DNA of 64,000 bases from Bacteroidales bacterium (GCA_047920975.1 JBLRXC010000001.1:12220-76219), one strand, 5' to 3'; positions 4,322-14,709 are shown, counted from the first letter of the stretch. Numbers and translations are program-made. The notes: generated by a model not told the origin, from the sequence alone.

Positions 4322-6124
4322 TCACCCCATCACATCAATCTGAAGGGATGTAAGGTTTTTGTAAATCCCTCCTTCAAGGTTCATCAATGCTTCGTGATTT
4401 CCGGATTCTTTAACCTCTCCTTTGTCAATCACGATGATCCTGTCTGCATTCCGGATTGTTGAGAGCCGGTGTGCAATGATGATGGATGTCCTGCCCGCCA
4501 TCAGTTTGACAAGAGCCTCCTGAACCAGCCGTTCCGATTCGGAATCGAGAGATGAAGTGGCTTCATCCAGGATCAGAATGGAAGGATCTTTGAGGATAGC
4601 CCTGGCAATGGCGATTCGCTGCCGCTGACCACCTGAAAGCTGGATTCCCCGGTCACCGACAAGTGTTTCCAATCCTTCAGGAAAGGACTCAATGAACTCA
4701 AGGGCGTTGGCCTGCTCTGCAGCACGGAGAATCTCCTTTTTGGTTGCTTTGGGCTTTCCGTATCCTATATTTTCGCGGATGGTACCACCAAAAAGAAGTA
4801 CCTCCTGCGGCACAATGGCCATGTTGTTCCTGAGACCAGTGAGATCGTAATCCATGATATCCTTCCGATCAATCATAATCTTTCCTGAATCCGGCTGATA
4901 AAATCTGAGCAGCAAACCGGAGATCGTACTTTTCCCTGCACCGGAAGGGCCAACCAGTGCCATTTGTTCCCCTTTTCTGACTTGAAAAGAGATCTTCTTC
5001 AAAACAGGTAAATCCTTCCGCGTTGGGTAAGCAAATGAAACATTCTCAAAAATTACTTCTCCGGATACACGAGTCGGAGACATATCAACACCGTCTGCAA
5101 TTATCTCTGGTTTCTCATCCAGGATATCCATCAGGTTTTCGGTAGCCCCGATCGCTTTTTGCAGCTGAGAATACAAATCAGCCATACCACTGATCGACCC
5201 GGCAATGAAAACGGTATAAAGTACAAATTTGAAAAGATCACCGGATGTCATTCCTTCACCCTGGTTCACTAGATAAACACCATACCAGATCACACCAACC
5301 ACCGATCCGAAAAGGGCAAAAAAGATAAACGAAACAAAGAGTCCTCTCCATTTGGCTCCCTTCAAAGCAACTTCCACCACCTCATTGGTCTTTTTCCTGT
5401 ACCTTGTAATCTCGAAGAGTTCATTGGCAAATGCCTTCACGCTGGCAATGGCTTGCAGGGTCTCTTCAACAATGGTGTTGGATTCAGCCACTTTGGTTTG
5501 TGCATCTTTGGAGAGCCGCCTGATAAAAGATCCGAAAAATCTCGTGATGACTGCGATAACAGGTACAAAGGCAAGCATGAACAGGGTTAGTTTGAAGGAT
5601 ATAATGGTCAGTAACGCGATGCCTCCCAGAATTGTAACAACCTGCCGGATGAACTGGGCAATCGTTGAGGTGAATGTTTCCTGTAAAAGTGCCACATCTG
5701 CAGAAATCCTGCTGTTCAGTTCACCAATTCTCCGGCTCGAAAAAAAAACCATGGGAAGTTTGATCAGATGATCATAGGTCGTTTGGCGGAGGAGAGCCAG
5801 GGTTCGCTCGGTTACGATCGCAAAAAGATATATCCTGAAATATGAAAACACTGCATTGGCAAGGAATATAGCAATGAGGATGAATCCAATCCTGTTGATG
5901 GATTCCATCGTTCCCGTCGTGGCTGCATCGAGCAGGTCGCCCATCAGTGCCGGGAATATTAATGTGGTCAGACTTGAAAGCAGGAGAAATATCAAACCTG
6001 TAATAAAAGTGCCTCGTTGGGGTCTTACAAAGCGAAATAACCGCATCAGCCGCCGAAGACCCTGCCGTGTGATTTTCTTTTTTGGTGTTTCCCTGTCGTC
6101 AGTTATCCTGTGATGTCTGGCCAT
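4322..6124 (-). CDS. ABC exporter, fused permease/ATPase (MsbA / multidrug type)
   Basis: 600 aa. Six-TM N-terminal half, Walker A GPSGAGKST, signature LSGGQRQR, Walker B ILILDEATS. Confidence 0.9.
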   Translation of the reverse strand: MARHHRITDDRETPKKKITRQGLRRLMRLFRFVRPQRGTFITGLIFLLLSSLTTLIFPALMGDLLDAATTGTMESINRIGFILIAIFLANAVFSYFRIYLFAIVTERTLALLRQTTYDHLIKLPMVFFSSRRIGELNSRISADVALLQETFTSTIAQFIRQVVTILGGIALLTIISFKLTLFMLAFVPVIAVITRFFGSFIRRLSKDAQTKVAESNTIVEETLQAIASVKAFANELFEITRYRKKTNEVVEVALKGAKWRGLFVSFIFFALFGSVVGVIWYGVYLVNQGEGMTSGDLFKFVLYTVFIAGSISGMADLYSQLQKAIGATENLMDILDEKPEIIADGVDMSPTRVSGEVIFENVSFAYPTRKDLPVLKKISFQVRKGEQMALVGPSGAGKSTISGLLLRFYQPDSGKIMIDRKDIMDYDLTGLRNNMAIVPQEVLLFGGTIRENIGYGKPKATKKEILRAAEQANALEFIESFPEGLETLVGDRGIQLSGGQRQRIAIARAILKDPSILILDEATSSLDSESERLVQEALVKLMAGRTSIIIAHRLSTIRNADRIIVIDKGEVKESGNHEALMNLEGGIYKNLTSLQIDVMG

Positions 6125-6454: not shown

Positions 6455-8041
6455 ATGGAAAATCTGAAAACCATTATCACATTTCTGCTTTCTATCATTG
6501 CTCCATTGGTGATTGTGACGCTGGTTTTGCGCGAACCGCCTGTCGATCATCAAAAGCTTGAAGAATTGCGACAGAAGTATTCTGAGGTGCATCAGCAGGT
6601 TGTTGACCATGGCAAGCATGAAATACTTCAGCAGGATTTTTCAAATCCTCATGCGATCACTGCAGCTTGTTTGTCATGTCATACAGAGCGGGGTGAGGAA
6701 GTTCTCCGCAATGCCCACTGGAACTGGGAGCGTGAGGCTTTTATTTCCGGAAAGGGTGTTACCTATCTCGGAAAGAAAACCCTGATCAATAATTTCTGCA
6801 CAGGTATTGCTTCGAATGAAGGAACCTGTAACCGCTGCCATATTGGCTACGGGTGGAAGGACAAAACCTTCGACTTCACCAATGCCTTCAATATTGACTG
6901 TCTGATCTGTCATGACAATACGCATACCTATGAAAAAGCCAAAGGGGCAGCCGGCTATCCACCGATGGGTGCGGAGGCTCCTGATTACAAATATATTCTG
7001 GCCAATGTGGGCAGGCCTGAGCGGGAGAACTGCGGCTATTGCCATTTTCACAGTGCCGGAGGCAACAATGTAAAGCATGGTGATCTTGAGATGGCATTGC
7101 TTACAGCAGATCGTACCATTGATGTGCACATGGGCGTGGATGGAATGAATTTCAATTGTATTGAATGCCATCCGGCTCAGAACCACCAGATGCTGGGCCG
7201 GTATTATGGTGTCTCCTCCTCTGACACCCAAAGAGCAACTTGTGAACAATGCCACACTTCAGTGCCTCATTCAAACAGTAAACTCAATGAGCACACCATC
7301 AAGGTAGCGTGTCAAACCTGTCATATACCGGTCTATGCAAAAGTGAACCCCACCAAGATGTTTTGGGACTGGTCAACAGCAACACGCCGAAAGGATGGAC
7401 TCCCTTACACAGAGGTCGATGCGGAAGGTGATGAGGTCTATTCCTCCATCAAGGGTGATTTTGACTGGGAACGGTTGGTACAACCGGAGTATTATTGGTT
7501 CAACGGAACTGCTGACCATCACCTGATCACTGAAAAGGTAGACCTGGATAATCTGCCGTTGAAAATAAATACCCTCTTTGGTGAGTACCGCGATCGCAAT
7601 GCTAAAATATACCCTGTAAAAGTGCACCGGGGAAAACAGCCCTATGATACCGAAAACATGAACATTATCCAACCCAAACTTTGGGATGCAGAAGCAAACA
7701 AGGGTGCGTTATGGGTTGATCTCGACTGGGCAGCAGCGCTCAGAACCGGTATGGAGTACCTCGAAATGCCTTACAGCGGAAAATATGATTTTATTCCGAC
7801 AGAAATGTTCCTGCCGGTCAACCATATGGTTTCACTCTCATCTGAATCACTGAACTGCAAGGATTGCCATACCCGCTCAGGCGGGCGGCTGGATAATCTT
7901 CGTGATTTTTACATGCCCGGACGTGATTACAATGCCGCCATCGATACCTTTGGAAGAATTTTGATATGGTTCTCAATTCTGGGGGTAGCTGTGCACGGAT
8001 CCATAAGAATTATGCATTTCAGAAAAACCAGTAAAAACTAA
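6455..8041 (+). CDS. Octaheme c-type cytochrome, resembles the tetrathionate-reductase (Otr) family; TM helices at both termini
   Basis: Eight CxxCH motifs read directly: CLSCH, CNRCH, CLICH, CGYCH, CIECH, CEQCH, CQTCH, CKDCH. The spacing and flanks (AHWNWE, INNFC, GYGW, VKHGDLE, VACQTCHIP, PTKMFWDWS) match my memory of Otr-family proteins. There is an N-terminal anchor IITFLLSIIAPLVIVTLVL and a C-terminal helix ILIWFSILGVAV. Confidence 0.75.
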   Translation: MENLKTIITFLLSIIAPLVIVTLVLREPPVDHQKLEELRQKYSEVHQQVVDHGKHEILQQDFSNPHAITAACLSCHTERGEEVLRNAHWNWEREAFISGKGVTYLGKKTLINNFCTGIASNEGTCNRCHIGYGWKDKTFDFTNAFNIDCLICHDNTHTYEKAKGAAGYPPMGAEAPDYKYILANVGRPERENCGYCHFHSAGGNNVKHGDLEMALLTADRTIDVHMGVDGMNFNCIECHPAQNHQMLGRYYGVSSSDTQRATCEQCHTSVPHSNSKLNEHTIKVACQTCHIPVYAKVNPTKMFWDWSTATRRKDGLPYTEVDAEGDEVYSSIKGDFDWERLVQPEYYWFNGTADHHLITEKVDLDNLPLKINTLFGEYRDRNAKIYPVKVHRGKQPYDTENMNIIQPKLWDAEANKGALWVDLDWAAALRTGMEYLEMPYSGKYDFIPTEMFLPVNHMVSLSSESLNCKDCHTRSGGRLDNLRDFYMPGRDYNAAIDTFGRILIWFSILGVAVHGSIRIMHFRKTSKN

Positions 8042-8058: not shown

Positions 8059-8718
8059 ATGAACAACAGGAAAACAGTAAAAGCATATGTATATCAGCGA
8101 TTTGAAAGATTCTGGCACTGGACACAATCATTCCTGATCATTTTTCTTGCCATCACAGGTTTTGAAATTCATAGCAGCTATTCGCTCTTTGGGTTTGATA
8201 CAGCTGTCGACCTGCATAACAAAGCAGCCTGGGCTTTCATTGTCCTGATCATTTTTGCTTTCTTCTGGCATTTCTCAACCGGTGAATGGAAACAATATAT
8301 ACCTACAACGAAAAACTTAAAAGCACAGACTGAATACTATCTCATGGGTATATTCAGGAATGCTCCCCACCCGACAAAAAAGACCGTTCTCAGCAAACTG
8401 AATCCACTCCAGAGATTGGTTTATTTAGGCCTGAAACTGCTGGTCATACCTGTAATGTTACTCTCAGGACTTCTCTACATGTTTTACCGGTATCCGCAAT
8501 CCGGTGTCATTGAGTCTGCAAACATCGAAAGCCTTGAGATCATTGCACTGGTTCACACATTGGGCGCTTTCCTGCTGGTTGCGTTCCTGGTGGTTCATCT
8601 CTATCTGATCACAACAGGTCATACGGTTACTTCGAATCTGAAGGCCATGATCACCGGGTGGGAAGAACTGGAAACGGATGAGAAGGAGGATTTGAGAACA
8701 GGAATTAACGATTTGTGA
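8059..8718 (+). CDS. Membrane di-heme cytochrome b (Ni/Fe-hydrogenase / PhsC / FdnI-type b subunit)
   Basis: 219 aa with four TM helices and conserved His residues (RFWHWTQ, EIHS, LVHTLG, VVHLY). It starts 17 nt after the octaheme gene. Confidence 0.75.
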   Translation: MNNRKTVKAYVYQRFERFWHWTQSFLIIFLAITGFEIHSSYSLFGFDTAVDLHNKAAWAFIVLIIFAFFWHFSTGEWKQYIPTTKNLKAQTEYYLMGIFRNAPHPTKKTVLSKLNPLQRLVYLGLKLLVIPVMLLSGLLYMFYRYPQSGVIESANIESLEIIALVHTLGAFLLVAFLVVHLYLITTGHTVTSNLKAMITGWEELETDEKEDLRTGINDL

Positions 8719-8840
8719 TTAGAGAATGGTTAAATGAGGAATCAGGATAGGGTTTTGTTCATTAAATTAAAACTAAGTGTTGATCAGGTAACTTTTAAAA
8801 TCATTAAACATTGTTCGTTAATCTTAAATCACCTGGTAAT

Positions 8841-9944
8841 ATGTTTATATTAAAGTTAATAAACAGGAACAACAGAATTGCCAAACTAATCATAGCAGGG
8901 CTTGCAGCAATGGTTTTGATCTCATGCAGCCAAACCAGTGAAGAGGTTAGCTTTGATAAACCCTCAGTGGAAAACACAATGTTATTGCTTGACTGGATAG
9001 AACAAACAGGAGATTACACCAATAGCAGCGAATTTCCATCGATTTTGGACGCCGCAGAGGTCTATGCATGGCGCGATGAAAACATCCTCCTGATTGACCT
9101 CAGGCCTTATGAGCATTACCGGGCCGGGCATATTGAGCATGCTATTAACCTGAGGCCCGGAGAGGTAATGCATTTCTTCCGGAATAAGATAGATCCGCCG
9201 GCATTCAAAAGCATTATATTCACCTGTAACACCGGTATGCTTTCATCTTATGTTACCAGTGTTTTGCGTAACCTCGGTTATAACAACACCTTCGCCATGC
9301 GGTACGGCATGAGTGGTTGGGACCGCTCCATAGCTGAACAATACTGGCTGGCAAATACCGGTGATCAGTTTGAGGGGAAATTAGAGCAGACCAATAATCC
9401 GATGATGCAGGCAGGATTGCTTCCAGCCATTGAAAACAAAGGGAATGATGGTTTTATGCTGGCCGTTTCACAGGCTGAAAAGGTTCTTTCAGAATCCCCT
9501 GACGAGTTTATGATCTCCATAGATGAATTGAGTAAAGATTTGGTTAAATATTACATTGTTTGCTATTGGTCGGATGATAAATGTTCGGAAGCAGGTCATT
9601 TGCCCGGGGCAGTCCGGTATGAACCCAAAAGATCACTGACCCGTGACTCTTTTTTAAATACACTTCCGACAGATCGGCCGATTGTTATTTATTGTAACAG
9701 TGCACATCAGAGCTCTTTTGTTACCGCCTACCTGAGGATGCTCGGCTATGATGCCAGAAGCCTGATCTATGGCGCCAATGGTTTTATTTACAAAACCATG
9801 ATGCGGCTTGAACCGAATCCCAGGAGGACTTTCAAGGAGGGTTTTATTCAGAACCTTCCTCTGGTAACTGAAAAGAACCGTCAGCCGGAACCGGAATCCA
9901 AAGACATTGAAATTGAAAAAACCACCATTCAGGGCGGTTGTTGA
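8841..9944 (+). CDS. Tandem-rhodanese lipoprotein with a C-terminal GGC tail
   Basis: The ATG at 8841 gives a signal peptide plus lipobox (LAAMVLISCSQ). There are two rhodanese domains with active-site loops FTCNTGMLSS and IYCNSAHQSS. The protein ends ...DIEIEKTTIQGGC. Confidence 0.8.
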   Translation: MFILKLINRNNRIAKLIIAGLAAMVLISCSQTSEEVSFDKPSVENTMLLLDWIEQTGDYTNSSEFPSILDAAEVYAWRDENILLIDLRPYEHYRAGHIEHAINLRPGEVMHFFRNKIDPPAFKSIIFTCNTGMLSSYVTSVLRNLGYNNTFAMRYGMSGWDRSIAEQYWLANTGDQFEGKLEQTNNPMMQAGLLPAIENKGNDGFMLAVSQAEKVLSESPDEFMISIDELSKDLVKYYIVCYWSDDKCSEAGHLPGAVRYEPKRSLTRDSFLNTLPTDRPIVIYCNSAHQSSFVTAYLRMLGYDARSLIYGANGFIYKTMMRLEPNPRRTFKEGFIQNLPLVTEKNRQPEPESKDIEIEKTTIQGGC

Positions 9945-9959
9945 CAAACTAAATTGATT

Positions 9960-10484
9960 ATGATGGAAAACAGAGTGAAACCTTACATGAACTCCTACCT
10001 GGCTGGTTTTCTGCTGGGTCTGGTACTGCTCTCTGCATTTTTTGTTACCGGTCGTGGTCTCGGTGCCAGCGGAGCTGCCAAAAGTGTTGTTATCAGCACG
10101 GTTGCCGGTACTGCGCCTGAATATGCTGCTGCCAATCCGTTCTATGGGGAGTATTTCCGCGAAGGTCCCGGACCCATGAAAAACTGGCTGGTTTATCTGA
10201 CGCTTGGTGTATTGGCAGGAGCTTTCTTTTCGGGAGCTATGTCAGGACGTATGGGGTTTAAAATTGAGAAGGGTCCCCGGATAAGCTCCGGATACAGGTT
10301 GATGTTTGCTACCCTGGGCGGCCTCCTCTTTGGATTGGGTGCCCAATTCGGGAGAGGCTGTACCAGTGGTGCGGCCCTCACAGGCATGGCGATTCTTTCC
10401 ACTGCCGGGTTTGTCACAATGATGGCTATCTTCGGTTCCGGCTATGTCATCGCATGGTTTTTCAGAAAACTCTGGCTGAATTAA
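9960..10484 (+). CDS. YeeE/YedE-family sulfur-transport membrane protein, half-size subunit 1
   Basis: About 174 aa, polytopic, with the GRGCTSGAALTG motif typical of YeeE/YedE (Sulf_transp). It starts 15 nt after the rhodanese gene. Confidence 0.8.
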   Translation: MMENRVKPYMNSYLAGFLLGLVLLSAFFVTGRGLGASGAAKSVVISTVAGTAPEYAAANPFYGEYFREGPGPMKNWLVYLTLGVLAGAFFSGAMSGRMGFKIEKGPRISSGYRLMFATLGGLLFGLGAQFGRGCTSGAALTGMAILSTAGFVTMMAIFGSGYVIAWFFRKLWLN

Positions 10485-10486
10485 AA

Positions 10487-10492
10487 AGGAGG
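10487..10492 (+). promoter_or_regulatory. Strong Shine-Dalgarno AGGAGG, 6 nt before the ATG at 10499
   Basis: Read directly (ttaaaaAGGAGGtaaactATG). I saw no comparable SD upstream of the other gene starts I inspected. Confidence 0.5.
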
Positions 10493-10498
10493 TAAACT

Positions 10499-11719
10499 AT
10501 GGGACCACTGATTCCACAAGGTTTTGTCAACCCCGATCTCAATCTTTTCTTTGCCTTCGTCATCGGATTGGGATTTGGTTACGTGCTTGAACAGGCAGGT
10601 TTTTCTTCTTCACGCAAACTGGCGGGTGTCTTTTATGGTTATGATTTTGTAGTGCTTCGTGTATTCTTCACCGCAGCAATCACTGCAATGACAGGGCTTC
10701 TGATGTTCAGCTACCTGGGCTGGATAGATTATACCATGCTTTACATCAACCCGACATTTCTCTGGTCAGCCATCGTGGGCGGGGTGATCATGGGATTTGG
10801 TTTTATTCTGGGCGGTTTTTGTCCGGGAACGAGCCTTGTAGGTGCGGTCATTGGTAAGGTGGATGCCATGTTTTTCGTCCTGGGCATGTTCATCGGTATC
10901 TTCCTGTTTGGAGCGTTCTATCAGGCATTTGAGCCGATCTATCTTGGAAATAACCTGGGAGGGATTTTCGTATTCGATTCACTGGGCATGAGCCGTGAAT
11001 GGTTTGCCATTATACTGATTGTGGTTGCCCTCACTGCATTTGCCATCACTCAGCGGATTGAGGATCGTGTGAACAAAATCCCTGCGGATGTGCGCTCTTC
11101 GAGGCCCTCTTATGCGGTACCGGCATTGCTGATCTTAGCAGCCGGCACAATCTTGATCATCTTGCCGCCTCAGCCACGTAGTAAGTGGTATGAAAACGCT
11201 GCTGCTTCCATTCTCTATGAAGTAGCGGAAGGTAAACATCGTGTTTGTACCGATGAGGTGGCTTACGGAATCATCAATGGTAAGAACTATCCAATGGTGC
11301 TGGTGGATGTGAGAGAACAGGAGGATTTTCAGACGTTCGCACTGCCAGGAGCACTCAATGTGCCGGCTGACCAGGTGCTGGACCGTCGCTATGCACCGGT
11401 ATTTGAATCAAAAAATACCAAAGTCGTGCTCTACTCCTTTTCCAACACAGTGGCTGAAGAGGCATGGGTACTCCTTCGCCGATCGGGTTACGAAAATATC
11501 TTTGTGATGGATGGGGGATTGAATGATTTTTTCCATAATCTATTTGTGGAAGAAAGCGTGGTCAGTTCACCCGACTGTCTGCTGATGCACCAGGCAAGAT
11601 TCAGGGAAAAGGCCAGAGAATATTTTAAATCCGGATCAGCAGTTCAGGAGAAGACCAGATTACCAAATCCGGTCATTCAAATCATTGAAGTGGAAATGCC
11701 ATCAGGTGGCGGTTGTTAA
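10499..11719 (+). CDS. YeeE/YedE half-size subunit 2 fused to a C-terminal rhodanese-like domain (Ser at the catalytic position) with a GGC tail
   Basis: 406 aa. N-terminal polytopic part with GGFCPGTSLVGA. C-terminal domain VLVDVREQEDFQTFALPGALNVP...VVLYSFSNTVAEEA...MDGGLNDF. The protein ends ...IQIIEVEMPSGGGC. Confidence 0.8.
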   Translation: MGPLIPQGFVNPDLNLFFAFVIGLGFGYVLEQAGFSSSRKLAGVFYGYDFVVLRVFFTAAITAMTGLLMFSYLGWIDYTMLYINPTFLWSAIVGGVIMGFGFILGGFCPGTSLVGAVIGKVDAMFFVLGMFIGIFLFGAFYQAFEPIYLGNNLGGIFVFDSLGMSREWFAIILIVVALTAFAITQRIEDRVNKIPADVRSSRPSYAVPALLILAAGTILIILPPQPRSKWYENAAASILYEVAEGKHRVCTDEVAYGIINGKNYPMVLVDVREQEDFQTFALPGALNVPADQVLDRRYAPVFESKNTKVVLYSFSNTVAEEAWVLLRRSGYENIFVMDGGLNDFFHNLFVEESVVSSPDCLLMHQARFREKAREYFKSGSAVQEKTRLPNPVIQIIEVEMPSGGGC

Positions 11720-11737
11720 TCATTTAAACCAGAGATC

Positions 11738-12349
11738 ATGAATCACTCACAATATAAAATATTAAACACAGCAGCGGTTTTCTCACTCGGAGTCGTTCTC
11801 CTGGTGATGGTGATCCAATGGATCGCCGCTCCGGCATACCGGATCGGCAATCATGACCTGCTTGAAAAAACCGGTCGGGAAGAAAGATGGATTTTGCCCC
11901 ATGATCTGCACCGGATCGTCAGCGAAGGGCAAATGGAACAATATCTCCTGATTGACCTGAGACAAACAGAGGCATTTAATTCAGGAACTCTTCCTGGTGC
12001 AGTTAACATTCCCTTTGAGAACCTCCTTGACAGTAAATATCAGAGAATTCTCAGGGCAGATAAACCGATGATGTTGTTTTCAGGCAATGAGTCACTGACT
12101 GCAGTTGCAGGCATGATGCTCTATTCCAAAGGTTTTGACCAGGTTTATTTGCTGGCCAATGATTATGTCTTTGTGAAGGAAAATGTGCTTGATGGTTATG
12201 TTCCTGCCTCTGCCATGTCAAAAGGCGAAAAAGCAAGGTTTGATTACAACCGCTATTTTGAAACCAGCTCAAAAAGTAGTACAAAGACTTCGAAACAGCA
12301 GCCTGTGATCATAGAAACAGAAGTGATTCAGGCAGCAGGGGGATGCTGA
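11738..12349 (+). CDS. Membrane-anchored single rhodanese-like domain protein (Ser at the catalytic position) with a GGC tail
   Basis: 203 aa. N-terminal anchor AAVFSLGVVLLVMVIQWIAA. Rhodanese fold signature LLIDLRQTEAFNSGTLPGAVNIP...MMLFSGNESLTAVAG. The protein ends ...VIIETEVIQAAGGC. Confidence 0.7.
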   Translation: MNHSQYKILNTAAVFSLGVVLLVMVIQWIAAPAYRIGNHDLLEKTGREERWILPHDLHRIVSEGQMEQYLLIDLRQTEAFNSGTLPGAVNIPFENLLDSKYQRILRADKPMMLFSGNESLTAVAGMMLYSKGFDQVYLLANDYVFVKENVLDGYVPASAMSKGEKARFDYNRYFETSSKSSTKTSKQQPVIIETEVIQAAGGC

Positions 12350-12513: not shown

Positions 12514-14709
12514 TCAATCCAATTCAATGTTGGTCAGTTCACCGGTCAGTTCATACGCATATTCAGGGTATTCATAGACTGGTACACGCGGCTCTGTCTC
12601 GCCGATGCTGTAGCCCCAGATACTTTCATATTCCCTGGCATTTTCGCCTATCTCTTCAAGTTGACGGATATATTCGCTCACAGATTTGGATTCGATGATG
12701 ATCACCTTTCCCATTTTGTGGATGATCGGACTATGACTCCTTGTCTGATCGTGATCGAATTGCAGAACCCTCCTTCCATATCGGGTGATGCCTATAACGC
12801 GATAGGTCAGACTCTTACCTACGCCGGGGAGATTGATTACATTCCGGTCGGTCGCGATAAAAGGAAGATTTTGCTGTTGCATCATCTGCAGCAAACTCTT
12901 ATCCATCTGACCGGGATCAAGGGAAAAGTCCCGGATCATATCCACAAGTTTTTCAGGCAGGGTTCCGAAAGCCTTCTCCTCAATTTGCTCCTGCACAGCT
13001 CTTGCATTTGTGGCAAAATTGAAATAGTTCTCCATGTAACCCTTTACGGAGAAGGTATAGTAAGGAAGTATTCCAATTTCATTGAGAACCTGTCGCAATT
13101 TGGCGTTATGCCCCCTTCGGGAGGCTGCCGTTGTGAAAACGTGCTGATTGGTAATGATCCAGCCGGAATTCAGAAATGCACTGATGGCTTGTTTAACTTC
13201 CGGTGTGATCTCCATGGGCGATTCAAAATGGGTCTGAATTACGAATTGCTGAATACCCTCGTCAATCGCCTTTTCTCTGAAAGTTTTTAGAATCTTGATC
13301 AGTTCGGGTGTGATTCGCTGGGGTAGATAGGCCGGCAGCCGGGTTCCCAATCTTACGCGGACAATTTCAGCAAGTTTCTTACCGGGTGGAAGTGTCTCAT
13401 TCTGTTTTCTCTTTCGGACAGCCATCCTGAGAACAGCATCCAGCATTTTTTCCATGGATTGGTTGGAACTCATCAATGCATCACCACCGGTAATCAGGAT
13501 ATCACGCAGCTGTGCATCTTTCTCCCAGTATTCCATGATCTTTTCCAGTTGGCTCTCCCATGATCCGTCAGGCTTTAACTTATCGAGATTGAAATTGAGG
13601 TTCCCTCTCTGAAAGTCATACATTCGCTGACATGATGCACACAATCCGCCGCAGGCACGTCCCATGGTTGCCGGAATCAGTATGGCCACTTCAGGATAAC
13701 GGCGGTGAACGCTGTGATGTGTTGGTAAAACCCAGCCGGCTGCATTGGGTTTGCCGGGTTCAACCTGATCTTCCTTTTCCCAGGCAACAATGTGGCCAAA
13801 CTCGTCTACCAGTTGCTGGCTGTAAACCACGTAATACCGTATGGCCAGGTCGGCACCGATGGCAAAATAAGGAACCCTGACATGCAGGAGGGAGAGATAA
13901 TAGGGGTTGACGAAAAAGGGAATGCCTGCCTTTTCTGCCGCATAAAGGATTTTCATGGTATCCGGGTCAAGGGAATTACCCAACAGTTCATTCAGCAATT
14001 CGGGTGAGCGCACGGCAAAACTCAGGTGGAAGCGATAATCATCCCACCATTCCAGCATCTGAAGAAATTTCTGCTCATGCGATAGTTTGGGAGCAAATGA
14101 AAAACGGGTGCTGCTGATCTTCCCTTCATCCATTTTTTCGATCAGGATGTTGATGATCCGCTCTCTGTTTTCTTCCCTGAGTTTTACGATTCTCGGGTCT
14201 AAGCCGCCCGGGAACCGTTCCATCCATTCAAGCAGGTTTTCGCGCAACGGCATGCTCCTTTTGAAGGTTCCCGCAAACTGACGGAAAAGATAAAGCATAT
14301 CCTCAAAGAAATAAGGTTTTGCGCCACCGGTGCCAAAATTAACGGCTAACCATATCAGTTTAATGGGGTTACTGATGGCAATTTCTCCCCGCAGATTTAA
14401 ATCTTCATATTCCCTTCCGGCATTGTCAATATAATCCAGCAGCCGGATGGCTGCATAATCCTGCCACGAAAGCTCTTCAAACGCTTCCCTTCCTTTGCGG
14501 GTTCCTTTATAGAATCCAAAGGCGACAGGGCGCTCTGTAAGGTAGCTCAAAACCCAGTTTCGTACACCAATCAATGCTTCGGTTTCATTGCGCGCATGGC
14601 GCATGATCTCCTCAAGTTTTGGATTTTCCCTGAGCAGTTCCTTCAGCAGTTTGTGCGATTTTACAGTGATGGCAATCTTGTCAAGTTTTTGATTTTCGTT
14701 CATTTTCAA
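12514..14709 (-). CDS. KamA-family radical SAM protein (lysine-2,3-aminomutase-like) with a ~340-aa N-terminal extension
   Basis: 731 aa. CxxxCxxC cluster CGGLCASC, ITGGDALM, and LPGVGKS with the candidate PLP lysine. The core begins around residue 340. Confidence 0.8.
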   Translation of the reverse strand: MKMNENQKLDKIAITVKSHKLLKELLRENPKLEEIMRHARNETEALIGVRNWVLSYLTERPVAFGFYKGTRKGREAFEELSWQDYAAIRLLDYIDNAGREYEDLNLRGEIAISNPIKLIWLAVNFGTGGAKPYFFEDMLYLFRQFAGTFKRSMPLRENLLEWMERFPGGLDPRIVKLREENRERIINILIEKMDEGKISSTRFSFAPKLSHEQKFLQMLEWWDDYRFHLSFAVRSPELLNELLGNSLDPDTMKILYAAEKAGIPFFVNPYYLSLLHVRVPYFAIGADLAIRYYVVYSQQLVDEFGHIVAWEKEDQVEPGKPNAAGWVLPTHHSVHRRYPEVAILIPATMGRACGGLCASCQRMYDFQRGNLNFNLDKLKPDGSWESQLEKIMEYWEKDAQLRDILITGGDALMSSNQSMEKMLDAVLRMAVRKRKQNETLPPGKKLAEIVRVRLGTRLPAYLPQRITPELIKILKTFREKAIDEGIQQFVIQTHFESPMEITPEVKQAISAFLNSGWIITNQHVFTTAASRRGHNAKLRQVLNEIGILPYYTFSVKGYMENYFNFATNARAVQEQIEEKAFGTLPEKLVDMIRDFSLDPGQMDKSLLQMMQQQNLPFIATDRNVINLPGVGKSLTYRVIGITRYGRRVLQFDHDQTRSHSPIIHKMGKVIIIESKSVSEYIRQLEEIGENAREYESIWGYSIGETEPRVPVYEYPEYAYELTGELTNIELD

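What the first reader, a model, noticed from the sequence alone, without database searches (positions are those of the whole stretch)
9903..12346. Three consecutive proteins of the module end in the same 'acidic beta-strand + Gly-Gly-Cys' C-terminal tail
Read directly from the translations. 8841..9944 ends ...NRQPEPESKDIEIEKTTIQGGC*. 10499..11719 ends ...KTRLPNPVIQIIEVEMPSGGGC*. 11738..12349 ends ...TSKQQPVIIETEVIQAAGGC*. In each case a polar low-complexity linker precedes an alternating hydrophobic/Glu stretch (IEIE, IIEVE, IIETE), then 4-5 residues, then GGC as the very last residues. Codon usage differs between the three tails (ggc ggt tgt tga; ggt ggc ggt tgt taa; ggg gga tgc tga), so this is conserved at the protein level rather than a recent DNA duplication. 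A terminal Cys on a flexible arm recalls the sulfur-carrying C-terminal arm of DsrC/TusE. A Gly-Gly terminus recalls the ThiS/MoaD sulfur carriers. I know of no described rhodanese or YeeE tail of this kind. It could be a swinging persulfide carrier, a docking peptide for the cytochrome or the YeeE channel, or a site of post-translational modification.
Basis: partly seen in the sequence, partly recalled or inferred. Interest (0 to 1): 0.82.

Follow-up and report, generated by a model that had tools for sequence, protein, structure and literature searches.

The report
Cysteine-tipped carrier arms on periplasmic rhodaneses
Three exported rhodanese-domain proteins in a sulfur-respiration operon end in a floppy tail tipped with Gly-Gly-Cys, a widely conserved and apparently undescribed look-alike of the SoxY sulfur-carrying arm that always sits beside a periplasmic sulfur reductase, so it probably ferries sulfur to that enzyme.

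Summary
The three tails are the only GGC termini in the 64 kb window. The tail is kept in 120/120 close homologues of the YeeE-rhodanese fusion and, as GGC, GGCG, GGCGG or xEGC, down to about 29% identity in several phyla. In 80 species-level loci, 121 of 133 rhodanese-cluster ORFs carry it, against 1 of 1040 other ORFs.

The conserved core is hydrophobic-x-Gly-Gly-Cys within 0-2 residues of the C-terminus, after a disordered linker. The 'acidic strand' is lineage-specific; most lineages have Lys there. All tailed proteins are exported. The tailed single rhodanese domains have lost the catalytic Cys, and the tail Cys is usually their only Cys.

The tail tracks a periplasm-facing, quinol-linked reductase: either an OTR-family octaheme cytochrome with cytochrome b, or a PsrABC/PhsABC-like molybdoenzyme. 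Tail-less members of the same fusion family sit beside persulfide-dioxygenase-type genes instead (0/6 against 5/5, p = 0.002). Near other OTR genes the same arm sits on DUF302 and on a small exported protein.

My best reading is a SoxY-like swinging-arm cysteine that carries sulfane sulfur to the reductase and the YeeE channel. This is convergent with SoxY, not homologous. No chemistry is shown. I rate it a new variant of a known kind.

The parts
6455..8041 (+). Octaheme c-type cytochrome of the tetrathionate-reductase (OTR) family, with 8 CxxCH motifs, an N-terminal signal/anchor and a C-terminal membrane anchor.
   Evidence: TIGR04315 at 550 bits against a cutoff of 375. PDB 1SP3 at E 1.8e-126 over residues 56-480. 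In 41 orthologues, all have an N-terminal hydrophobic segment and 39 have a C-terminal one.
8059..8718 (+). Membrane cytochrome b (PhsC / Ni_hydr_CYTB type). It is the presumed quinol-oxidising partner of the cytochrome c.
   Evidence: PF01292 at E 4e-30; thiosulfate reductase cytochrome b model at 106 bits, below its cutoff. It follows the OTR gene in 43 loci.
8841..9944 (+). Lipoprotein with two rhodanese domains. Both keep an active-site Cys loop (CNTGMLS, CNSAHQS). It ends in the arm ...IEIEKTTIQGGC. An alternative start lies at 8811.
   Evidence: PF00581 matched twice. The lipobox is LISC, and its Cys is invariant in 91 sequences. AlphaFold pLDDT is 91.8 for the body. The fold matches tandem rhodaneses.
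9876..9941 (+). Arm 1: the last ~22 residues of the lipoprotein. The Gly-Gly-Cys codons are at 9933-9941.
   Evidence: pLDDT about 51-53 with no secondary structure. Of 120 homologues, 80 end in GGC and 7 in GGCx.
9954..10484 (+). YeeE/YedE N-type half (PmpB/YedE-like) with the pore motif GRGCTSG. It has no tail.
   Evidence: PF04143 at E 2.7e-16. Present in 77 of 80 loci; the motif is present in 62 of 80.
10499..11719 (+). YeeE C-type half (pore motif GGFCPGT), followed by an extra transmembrane helix, a rhodanese domain without catalytic Cys (YSFSNT), a helix, and the arm ...IIEVEMPSGGGC.
   Evidence: PF04143 plus PF00581. C108 and G404-G405-C406 are invariant in 81 sequences. The catalytic Cys is replaced throughout the family.
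11651..11716 (+). Arm 2: the last ~22 residues of the fusion. The Gly-Gly-Cys codons are at 11708-11716.
   Evidence: Residues 385-406 have pLDDT below 50 and are coil. All 120 close homologues end in GGC. Of 149 50%-identity representatives, 31 end GGC, 48 end GGCx(x) and 18 end xxC.
11738..12349 (+). Signal-anchored single rhodanese domain without catalytic Cys (FSGNES), ending in the arm ...IIETEVIQAAGGC. It is a paralogue of the C-terminal half of the fusion.
   Evidence: PF00581. It is 27% identical end to end with fusion residues 201-406, tail included, at E 4e-18. The family's N-termini look like signal peptides.
12275..12346 (+). Arm 3: the last ~24 residues of the single-domain protein. 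The Gly-Gly-Cys codons are at 12338-12346.
   Evidence: 9 of 10 homologues end in GGC. Of 65 genome orthologues, 62 end in GGC or GGCS. The tail Cys is the sole Cys of the mature protein in 44 of 62.

Best explanation
The Gly-Gly-Cys tails are flexible, periplasmic, cysteine-tipped carrier arms. They are functionally analogous to the C-terminal swinging arm of SoxY but are built on membrane-tethered rhodanese-fold scaffolds.

Proposed mechanism. Sulfane sulfur from polysulfide, elemental sulfur, thiosulfate or tetrathionate is bound covalently to the terminal thiol as a persulfide, polysulfide or thiosulfonate. Where a catalytic rhodanese is present (the lipoprotein), that enzyme loads the arm. 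The slim Gly-Gly neck lets the loaded Cys reach into the buried active site of a periplasm-facing, quinol-linked reductase. In this window that reductase is the OTR octaheme cytochrome with cytochrome b. In sister operons it is a PsrABC/PhsABC-like molybdoenzyme. The reductase reduces the bound sulfur and frees the thiol. Because one arm is fused to the YeeE channel, the arms can also exchange sulfur with the Cys relay of the split YeeE/YedE1E2-type transporter.

What is shown: the motif, its conservation, its disorder in the models, its export, the loss of the catalytic Cys, and the strict gene-neighbourhood link to the two reductase types.

What is inferred: covalent sulfur carriage, the identity of the cargo, the direction of electron flow, and the hand-off to YeeE.
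For: 1. The motif is conserved at depth and sits on rhodanese proteins almost exclusively.

2. Distant members end in GGCG or GGCGG. This is the sulfur-binding C-terminus of SoxY (PMC6067878; 'GGC functional motif' and VTIGGC in PMC11237559). Here the consensus is V/I/A-x-G-G-C.

3. Both models give confident bodies and unstructured tails with low pLDDT.

4. Everything faces the same compartment. The lipobox Cys is invariant. The single-domain proteins have signal-peptide-like N-termini. All 28 Mo subunits have TAT signals, and the OTRs have signal and anchor segments.

5. In the fusion and single-domain families the rhodanese catalytic Cys is replaced by S, G, A or D, and the tail Cys is usually the only Cys.

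6. Synteny in 80 species: 39 loci have OTR plus cytochrome b, 28 have Mo-FeS-NrfD (4 have both), and every complete locus has at least one tail.

7. The pattern holds across phyla. GGCG(G) fusions follow OTR, and xEGC fusions follow Psr-like operons.

8. Negative control. Six tail-less members of the same fusion family all follow a Lactamase_B-rhodanese gene and none has OTR or Psr, against 5 of 5 tailed members. Fisher exact p = 0.0022.

9. The same arm occurs on unrelated scaffolds next to OTR: DUF302 proteins in L124 and L141, and a 101-aa exported protein in L120.

10. Precedents exist. Split YedE1E2 imports zero-valent sulfur through two essential Cys (PMC10812762). Secreted rhodanese sulfurtransferases are encoded in Psr operons (PMC12142623).
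Against: - No chemistry is shown. Nothing here demonstrates a sulfur adduct on the Cys.
- AlphaFold disorder is also what any low-complexity tail would give.
- No multimer docking could be run, so entry of the arm into the OTR, Psr or YeeE sites is untested.
- The role of YeeE in a purely periplasmic reduction is unclear, and no cytoplasmic acceptor (TusA, DsrE) recurs in the loci.
- Some cytochrome-b-coupled OTR loci have no GGC arm (L127, L130, L133, L135).
- Shewanella-type soluble OTR stands alone (L093-L107), so the arm is not a general requirement of the OTR family.
- The flanking charge flips between acidic and basic lineages. This is unexplained if the arm docks in one conserved site.
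- A lone thiol in the periplasm of an organism with DsbA-type oxidants would need protection. Thioredoxin/DsbD genes are nearby in only about 4 loci.
Confidence: 0.6

Rival explanations
1. The arms are electron shuttles, not sulfur carriers. They act as periplasmic protein thiols whose arm-arm or arm-enzyme disulfides are reduced by OTR or Psr. The free thiols then reduce external substrates (S8, tetrathionate, selenite, disulfides) non-enzymatically, or keep the YeeE pore cysteines reduced.
For: - There is a single reactive Cys per domain, and up to three arms per operon, so disulfide pairing is possible.
- The arms co-occur with quinol-linked reductases.
- Thioredoxin/DsbD genes lie upstream in a few loci.
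Against: - Dedicated thiol-disulfide shuttles normally use CxxC pairs in a thioredoxin fold. A lone terminal Cys on a rhodanese scaffold points to sulfur chemistry.
- The lipoprotein keeps a catalytic sulfurtransferase loop.
- Many operons have only one arm.
Confidence: 0.14
2. The architecture is the same but the cargo is selenium or tellurium. The arms carry selenotrisulfide or perselenide species to a selenite-type respiratory reductase.
For: - YedE-family proteins and rhodaneses are linked to selenium handling (weak NCBIfam hits to selenium-type YedE and to rhodanese selenoproteins; PMC13188914).
- The selenite reductase operon of Bacillus selenitireducens encodes a Psr-like SrrABC plus two rhodanese-domain proteins of 38 and 45 kDa (PMC12481199). 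These are close to the sizes of the window's lipoprotein (367 aa) and fusion (406 aa).
Against: - The best Mo-subunit match is thiosulfate reductase PhsA, and the cytochrome is OTR-family.
- No Sec variant of the arm Cys was found in 80 loci.
- The hosts are abundant anaerobes of sediments and digesters, where sulfur is the obvious substrate.
Confidence: 0.1
3. The tail is a metal-binding tag. A terminal Gly-Gly-Cys could chelate a soft metal through amide nitrogens and the thiolate, for delivery to or protection of the cytochrome, the Mo enzyme or the channel.
For: - Gly-Gly-Cys peptides are used as synthetic metal chelators (several radiolabelling papers).
- A MerR-family regulator precedes the OTR gene in 8 loci.
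Against: - No metal transporter, chaperone or resistance gene recurs in the loci.
- The tail tolerates 0-2 extra residues and xEGC variants.
- Every constant neighbour is a sulfur-handling protein.
- MerR-family proteins also sense redox signals.
Confidence: 0.05
4. The tail is a processing, lipidation or sorting signal, or a site of enzymatic modification. Examples would be modification by the neighbouring KamA-like radical SAM enzyme, or ThiS-like exposure of Gly-Gly.
For: - The position is strictly C-terminal.
- A 731-aa KamA-family radical SAM gene lies convergent at 12514-14709.
- A Gly-Gly pair precedes the Cys.
Against: - The radical SAM gene has no counterpart in any of the 80 related loci.
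- No protease, E1-like enzyme, transferase or sortase recurs.
- There is no beta-grasp fold and no ATP in the periplasm.
- There is no hydrophobic sorting segment.
- The proteins already carry N-terminal anchors.
Confidence: 0.05

Closest known systems
SoxY carrier arm of the periplasmic Sox thiosulfate-oxidation system
   Same: - A periplasmic protein whose flexible C-terminal peptide ends in Gly-Gly-Cys.
- The Cys carries sulfur intermediates into the active sites of partner enzymes (PMC5336275, PMC6067878, PMC11237559).
- Some distant members here end in exactly GGCGG.
- A hydrophobic residue precedes the Gly-Gly.
   Different: - There is no SoxY fold or homology (PF13501 is not detected).
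- The scaffold is rhodanese (or DUF302, or a small beta-rich protein) and is tethered to the membrane.
- No SoxZ, SoxAX or SoxB genes are nearby.
- The partners are quinol-linked OTR or Psr-like enzymes plus a YeeE channel.
- In the window the Cys is the very last residue.
Sud, the periplasmic polysulfide-sulfur transferase that serves Wolinella polysulfide reductase (PDB 1QXN)
   Same: - A periplasmic rhodanese-fold protein with a single Cys that binds polysulfide sulfur and hands it to Psr (from my knowledge of the Klimmek/Kroger work).
- The type B operons here pair a Psr-like enzyme with single-Cys rhodanese-fold proteins.
- The fusion-family profile hits 1QXN at E 1e-4.
   Different: - In Sud the Cys sits in the rhodanese active-site loop. 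Here that Cys is lost and a new one sits on a C-terminal arm.
- The sequence relationship is only at superfamily level.
- Sud is soluble and is not linked to YeeE.
DsrC / TusE C-terminal arm
   Same: A flexible C-terminal arm with a Cys at or next to the terminus. It carries sulfur and serves as co-substrate of a respiratory sulfur reductase (from my knowledge).
   Different: DsrC is cytoplasmic, has a different fold, and has two arm cysteines. No DsrC/TusE domain is detected here, and its partner is sirohaem DsrAB.
YeeE/TsuA with YeeD/TsuB, and split YedE1E2/PmpAB sulfur importers
   Same: The same channel family, with conserved pore cysteines. These channels need or use a Cys-bearing partner protein (PMC11582611) and import zero-valent sulfur through a Cys relay (PMC10812762).
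   Different: The known partner TsuB is a cytoplasmic TusA-like protein. Here the partner domain is periplasmic, fused through an extra transmembrane helix, and tipped with an arm. Tail-less fusions also exist.
Shewanella octaheme tetrathionate reductase OTR (1SP3)
   Same: The cytochrome in the window is a full-length homologue (E 1.8e-126).
   Different: Shewanella-type OTR is soluble and its gene stands alone, with no cytochrome b, YeeE or arm within 8 kb in 12 informative loci. The enzyme here is membrane-anchored and coupled to cytochrome b.

Membership tests
SoxY (PF13501) | SoxY immunoglobulin-like domain detectable by the family profile | tested here: not met
   Pfam scans of the full proteins and of seven tails at E up to 10 give no SoxY hit.
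SoxY (PF13501) | C-terminal Gly-Gly-Cys(-Gly-Gly) peptide | tested here: met
   GGC in the window. GGCG and GGCGG in distant homologues. The motif is documented for SoxY in PMC6067878 and PMC11237559.
SoxY (PF13501) | Periplasmic location | tested here: met
   Lipobox with an invariant Cys; signal-peptide-like N-termini. This is inferred from sequence, not measured.
SoxY (PF13501) | SoxZ partner and SoxAX/SoxB/SoxCD enzymes encoded nearby | tested here: not met
   The recurrent neighbour families in 80 loci are OTR, cytochrome b, Mo-FeS-NrfD, YeeE halves, MerR and MobA. No Sox-type family recurs.
SoxY (PF13501) | Covalent sulfur adducts on the arm Cys | not testable with these tools
   This needs mass spectrometry.
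Rhodanese sulfurtransferase (PF00581) | Rhodanese fold | tested here: met
   PF00581 is found in all three proteins. The model matches tandem rhodaneses. PDB rhodaneses are hit.
Rhodanese sulfurtransferase (PF00581) | Catalytic Cys in the active-site loop | tested here: inconclusive
   Met in the lipoprotein (CNTGMLS, CNSAHQS; C285 is at least 90% conserved). Not met in the fusion and the single-domain protein (Ser).
DsrC/TusE | DsrC-like fold, cytoplasmic location, two-Cys C-terminal arm | tested here: not met
   No DsrC domain is found. The proteins are exported. There is a single arm Cys.
ThiS/MoaD sulfur carriers | Beta-grasp fold, a terminal Gly-Gly activated by an E1-like enzyme, and a protease if residues follow | tested here: not met
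   No beta-grasp domain is found. MoeB-model hits are weak rhodanese-domain matches (30-46 bits against cutoff 449). No E1 or JAMM gene recurs.
YeeE/YedE (PF04143) split transporter | Two half-proteins, each with a conserved pore Cys | tested here: met
   PF04143 is found in both halves. GRGCTSG is present in 62 of 80 and GG(F/Y)CPG in 85 of 85. C108 is invariant.
OTR-family octaheme cytochrome (TIGR04315) | Score above the family cutoff, eight CxxCH motifs, homology to 1SP3 | tested here: met
   550.6 bits against cutoff 375. Eight CxxCH are read in the translation. 1SP3 at E 1.8e-126.
Sud polysulfide-sulfur transferase | Specific orthology to Wolinella Sud, with the Cys in the active-site loop | tested here: not met
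   1QXN is hit only at E 1e-4, among generic rhodaneses. The loop Cys is absent.

The most novel reading that the evidence does not exclude
The cytochrome-b-coupled OTR cytochromes and the Psr-like enzymes of these operons do not act on free sulfur anions. They act on protein-bound sulfur presented on the Gly-Gly-Cys arms, making the arms a periplasmic counterpart of the DsrC cycle in which they are obligatory co-substrates. This would give the OTR family, whose physiological function 'has never been established' (PMC12949373), its real substrate. It would also define a modular carrier-arm system reused on at least four unrelated scaffolds.
Probability: 0.3. Interest if true: 0.85.

Novelty: new variant of a known kind. 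Interest (0 to 1): 0.68.

Why it matters
Swinging-arm cysteines are known from SoxY in periplasmic oxidation and DsrC in cytoplasmic reduction. A third system would add a missing piece to anaerobic sulfur respiration: convergent, periplasmic, membrane-tethered, and attached to quinol-linked reductases and a YeeE channel.

It is widespread. Hosts are Bacteroidota, Ignavibacteriota, Planctomycetota, a gammaproteobacterial MAG and others.

It offers a concrete, testable hypothesis for what membrane-bound OTR cytochromes do. It also explains why these rhodanese domains have lost their catalytic Cys.

It flags annotation problems. Public names are only generic: 'YeeE/YedE family protein', 'rhodanese-like domain-containing protein', and a mistaken 'MoeB'.

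Tried and rejected
- Chance or recent DNA duplication. Rejected by codon differences, depth of conservation and the background rate of 1 in 1040.
- Modification by the adjacent KamA-like radical SAM enzyme. Rejected because the gene is absent from all 80 related loci.
- Selenocysteine variants or read-through. The lipoprotein's TGA stop is in frame with the next gene. No GG-TGA variant was found in any locus, and the second tail ends in TAA.
- Homology of the tail to SoxY. None was found.
- YeeE as the tail's defining partner. I held this view after and revised it. Tail-less fusions exist with YeeE but without a reductase, and tailed non-rhodanese proteins exist next to OTR without YeeE.
- A SoxS/V/W-like thiol-reactivation system. 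ArsR, thioredoxin and DsbD genes are seen in L002, but only about 4 loci have nearby thioredoxins. This is too sparse to include.
- Literature. Searches for a natural C-terminal GGC motif or a rhodanese swinging arm gave only synthetic-peptide and SoxY papers. The Srr paper (PMC6416917) is not held, so the SrrE and SrrF C-termini could not be checked.
- Structure. The YeeE half folded poorly as a monomer, and no multimer prediction is available.

Full report
**Observation.** The window carries a co-directional gene set with short gaps:
- 6455-8041: an OTR-family octaheme cytochrome c (TIGR04315, 550 bits).
- 8059-8718: a cytochrome b of the PhsC / Ni_hydr_CYTB type.
- 8841-9944: a lipoprotein with two rhodanese domains.
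- 9954-10484: a YeeE half.
- 10499-11719: the other YeeE half, fused through an extra transmembrane helix to a rhodanese domain.
- 11738-12349: a signal-anchored single rhodanese.

The third, fifth and sixth proteins end in ...TTIQGGC...PSGGGC and ...QAAGGC, with different codons. No other ORF of 30 aa or more in the window ends in GGC. The three are not strictly consecutive, because the untailed YeeE half lies between the first two.

**Conservation.**
- All 120 listed homologues of the fusion, down to 52% identity, end in GGC.
- An exhaustive search of 50%-identity representatives extends this to about 29% identity. Of 149 representatives, 31 end in GGC, 48 in GGCx(x) (mostly GGCG, some GGCS, three GGCGG), and 18 in another xxC ending, mostly xEGC. 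The remainder are mostly fragments or a tail-less subfamily.
- Nine of ten homologues of the third tailed protein end in GGC; the tenth is truncated.
- Of 120 lipoprotein homologues, 80 end in GGC and 7 carry one extra residue. More distant ones, such as a Maribellus protein, simply stop before the linker.
- The third tailed protein and the C-terminal half of the fusion are paralogues end to end, tail included (27% identity, E 4e-18). The lipoprotein tail is not alignable to them.

**Anatomy of the tail.** I anchored the sequences on the Cys. The invariant part is G-G-C, with V, I or A at position -4, a polar residue at -3, and 0-2 residues after the Cys. The preceding 8-10 residues are Lys-rich in most fusion and single-domain lineages. 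They are acidic or Thr-rich only in the window's close relatives and in the lipoprotein family. The 'acidic beta-strand' is therefore lineage-specific.

AlphaFold2 with family alignments gives confident rhodanese bodies. The lipoprotein has mean pLDDT 91.8, and the fusion's rhodanese domain scores 85-92. The last ~20 residues are unstructured at pLDDT 40-53.

In the fusion family the rhodanese active-site Cys is replaced by S, G, A or D, and the tail Cys is usually the only Cys of the whole C-terminal domain. In 44 of 62 tailed single-domain proteins it is the only Cys of the mature protein. The lipoprotein keeps a conserved catalytic loop in its second domain (CYSGQHS type) and often one in the first.

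**Location.**
- The lipobox Cys is invariant.
- The single-domain proteins start with signal-peptide-like segments, and one has a lipobox.
- The fusion's extra helix follows a basic loop.
- All 28 Mo subunits of the sister operons have (S/T)RRxFIK twin-arginine signals.
- All 41 OTRs have an N-terminal hydrophobic segment, and 39 have a C-terminal one.

Arms and redox enzymes therefore share the periplasm. This rests on sequence signals, not on measurement.

**Gene neighbourhood.** A scan of one genome per species returned 80 loci. They are mostly Bacteroidota and Ignavibacteriota, with Pirellulaceae, LCP-89 and two cultured Marinilabiliales. ORF mapping and clustering gave three architectures:
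- **Type A:** OTR, cytochrome b, (lipoprotein with tail), YeeE_N, YeeE_C::rhodanese with tail, (single rhodanese with tail).
- **Type B:** a PhsA/PsrA-like Mo subunit (458 bits to the PhsA model, below its cutoff), a 4Fe-4S subunit, an NrfD anchor, YeeE_N, unfused YeeE_C, then one or two single rhodaneses with tail.
- **A rarer form:** OTR, cytochrome b, single rhodanese with tail, tandem rhodanese.

Of the 80 loci, 76 carry at least one tail. The four without are contig ends or a frameshift that hides ...KKVAGGC*. In these loci 121 of 133 rhodanese-cluster ORFs have the tail, against 1 of 1040 others, and that one is a truncated lipoprotein copy.

Distant GGCG and GGCGG fusions also follow an OTR and a cytochrome b. 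The xEGC fusions follow Mo-FeS-NrfD operons.

**Negative control.** Six tail-less members of the same fusion family were looked up. All follow a Lactamase_B-rhodanese (persulfide-dioxygenase-type) gene, and none has an OTR or a Psr-like enzyme. A seventh, on a short contig, was uninformative. Against 5 of 5 tailed members with a reductase, Fisher's exact p is 0.0022. The tail tracks the reductase, not YeeE as such.

**OTR survey.** I rebuilt the 1SP3 sequence from its alignment and used it to fetch 63 metagenomic OTR loci.
- Shewanella-type OTR genes (at least 67% identical) stand alone.
- In the cytochrome-b-coupled branch, four loci repeat type A with GGCG tails.
- Two loci have a membrane-anchored DUF302 protein ending in a Gly-rich linker plus GGC.
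- One locus has a 101-aa exported protein ending in ...KKAGGC, 14 nt after the OTR gene.
- Three loci have OTR, cytochrome b, a monoheme cytochrome c ending in ...A(S/G)C(S/R), a full-length YeeE and a triple rhodanese.
- Several loci have no arm at all.

The arm is thus a portable element found on at least four unrelated scaffolds. It is enriched with membrane-coupled OTRs but is not universal to the family.

**Interpretation.** The closest known device is the SoxY arm. SoxY is periplasmic, carries pathway intermediates on a Cys in a swinging arm (PMC5336275), and ends in GGCGG (PMC6067878). It has a 'GGC functional motif' and a canonical VTIGGC (PMC11237559). There is no SoxY homology here, so the resemblance is convergent.

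Sud of Wolinella is a functional precedent for a periplasmic single-Cys rhodanese-fold protein serving Psr (from my knowledge). The family profile hits its structure 1QXN only at superfamily level. Split YedE1E2 channels import zero-valent sulfur through two essential Cys (PMC10812762), and both pore motifs are conserved here.

I therefore propose that the arms bind sulfane sulfur covalently and present it to the OTR or Psr-like active site, and that they can exchange it with the YeeE relay. The steps shown are the motif, its conservation, disorder, export, loss of the catalytic Cys, and the gene linkage. Cargo, direction and hand-offs are inferred.

**Rivals and novelty.** The rivals are thiol electron shuttles, selenium cargo, metal binding, and a processing or modification signal. 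Each is weighed in its own section. The neighbouring KamA-like radical SAM gene is not part of the module.

Literature searches found no description of such a tail. Public names for these proteins are generic or wrong. Because the physiological role of OTR is unsettled (PMC12949373), the protein-bound-substrate reading is worth testing.

Noticed in passing
window 12514-14709 (-): A 731-aa KamA-family radical SAM protein (CxxxCxxC at ACGGLCASC) with an N-terminal extension of about 200 aa. It is convergent with the module. It scores far below the cutoffs of all the aminomutase equivalogs and is not conserved next to the module in related loci.
   Followed up: partly
window 9942-9962: The TGA stop of the lipoprotein gene is in frame with the start of the next gene 12 nt downstream. 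I considered Sec read-through and found no support.
   Followed up: yes
L124:599-1177 and L141:11289-11834: Membrane-anchored DUF302-domain proteins next to OTR and cytochrome b genes end in a long Gly-rich linker plus GGC (...GGGGSGGGGGGGC, ...SSGGGGGSLGGGC). This is the same arm on an unrelated scaffold of unknown function.
   Followed up: partly
L120:9370-9675: A 101-aa exported, beta-rich protein with no Pfam family ends in ...YLKKAGGC. It starts 14 nt after an OTR gene, behind a strong ribosome-binding site. It may be a minimal stand-alone carrier.
   Followed up: partly
L136:7107-7520, L142:6693-7142, L126:4738-5127: Small exported monoheme cytochromes c encoded between the cytochrome b gene (or directly after the OTR gene in L142) and a full-length YeeE gene end in ...DAPASCS, ...DAPTGCR and ...DNPAGCS. 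This penultimate Cys recalls the DsrC terminus.
   Followed up: no
L002:884-3748: Upstream of a GGCG-type module lie an ArsR-type regulator, three thioredoxin-like genes and a DsbD-like membrane protein. This arrangement recalls soxR/S/V/W beside soxYZ. Only about 4 of the loci examined show nearby thioredoxins.
   Followed up: partly
L025:6576-7037 and 7 other loci: A MerR-family regulator lies directly upstream of the OTR gene in 8 type A loci. No such gene is present upstream in the window, where a divergent ABC transporter gene (4322-6124, -) lies instead.
   Followed up: no
L002:5219-7474, L087:3737-6442, L108: In GGCG-type loci the cytochrome b is fused to a multiheme cytochrome c domain, giving a protein of 739-901 aa instead of about 220 aa.
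   Followed up: no
L047 and L049, downstream of the untailed tandem rhodanese: The next ORFs begin with signal peptides ending in ...SAQGCG and ...KAQGCGGG. This puts a Cys followed by glycines at the N-terminus of the mature protein, a mirror image of the C-terminal arm.
   Followed up: no
P0408 (cluster of P0303): A tailed YeeE-rhodanese fusion is named 'molybdopterin biosynthesis protein MoeB' in public databases. This error arises from the rhodanese domain shared with MoeB.
   Followed up: yes
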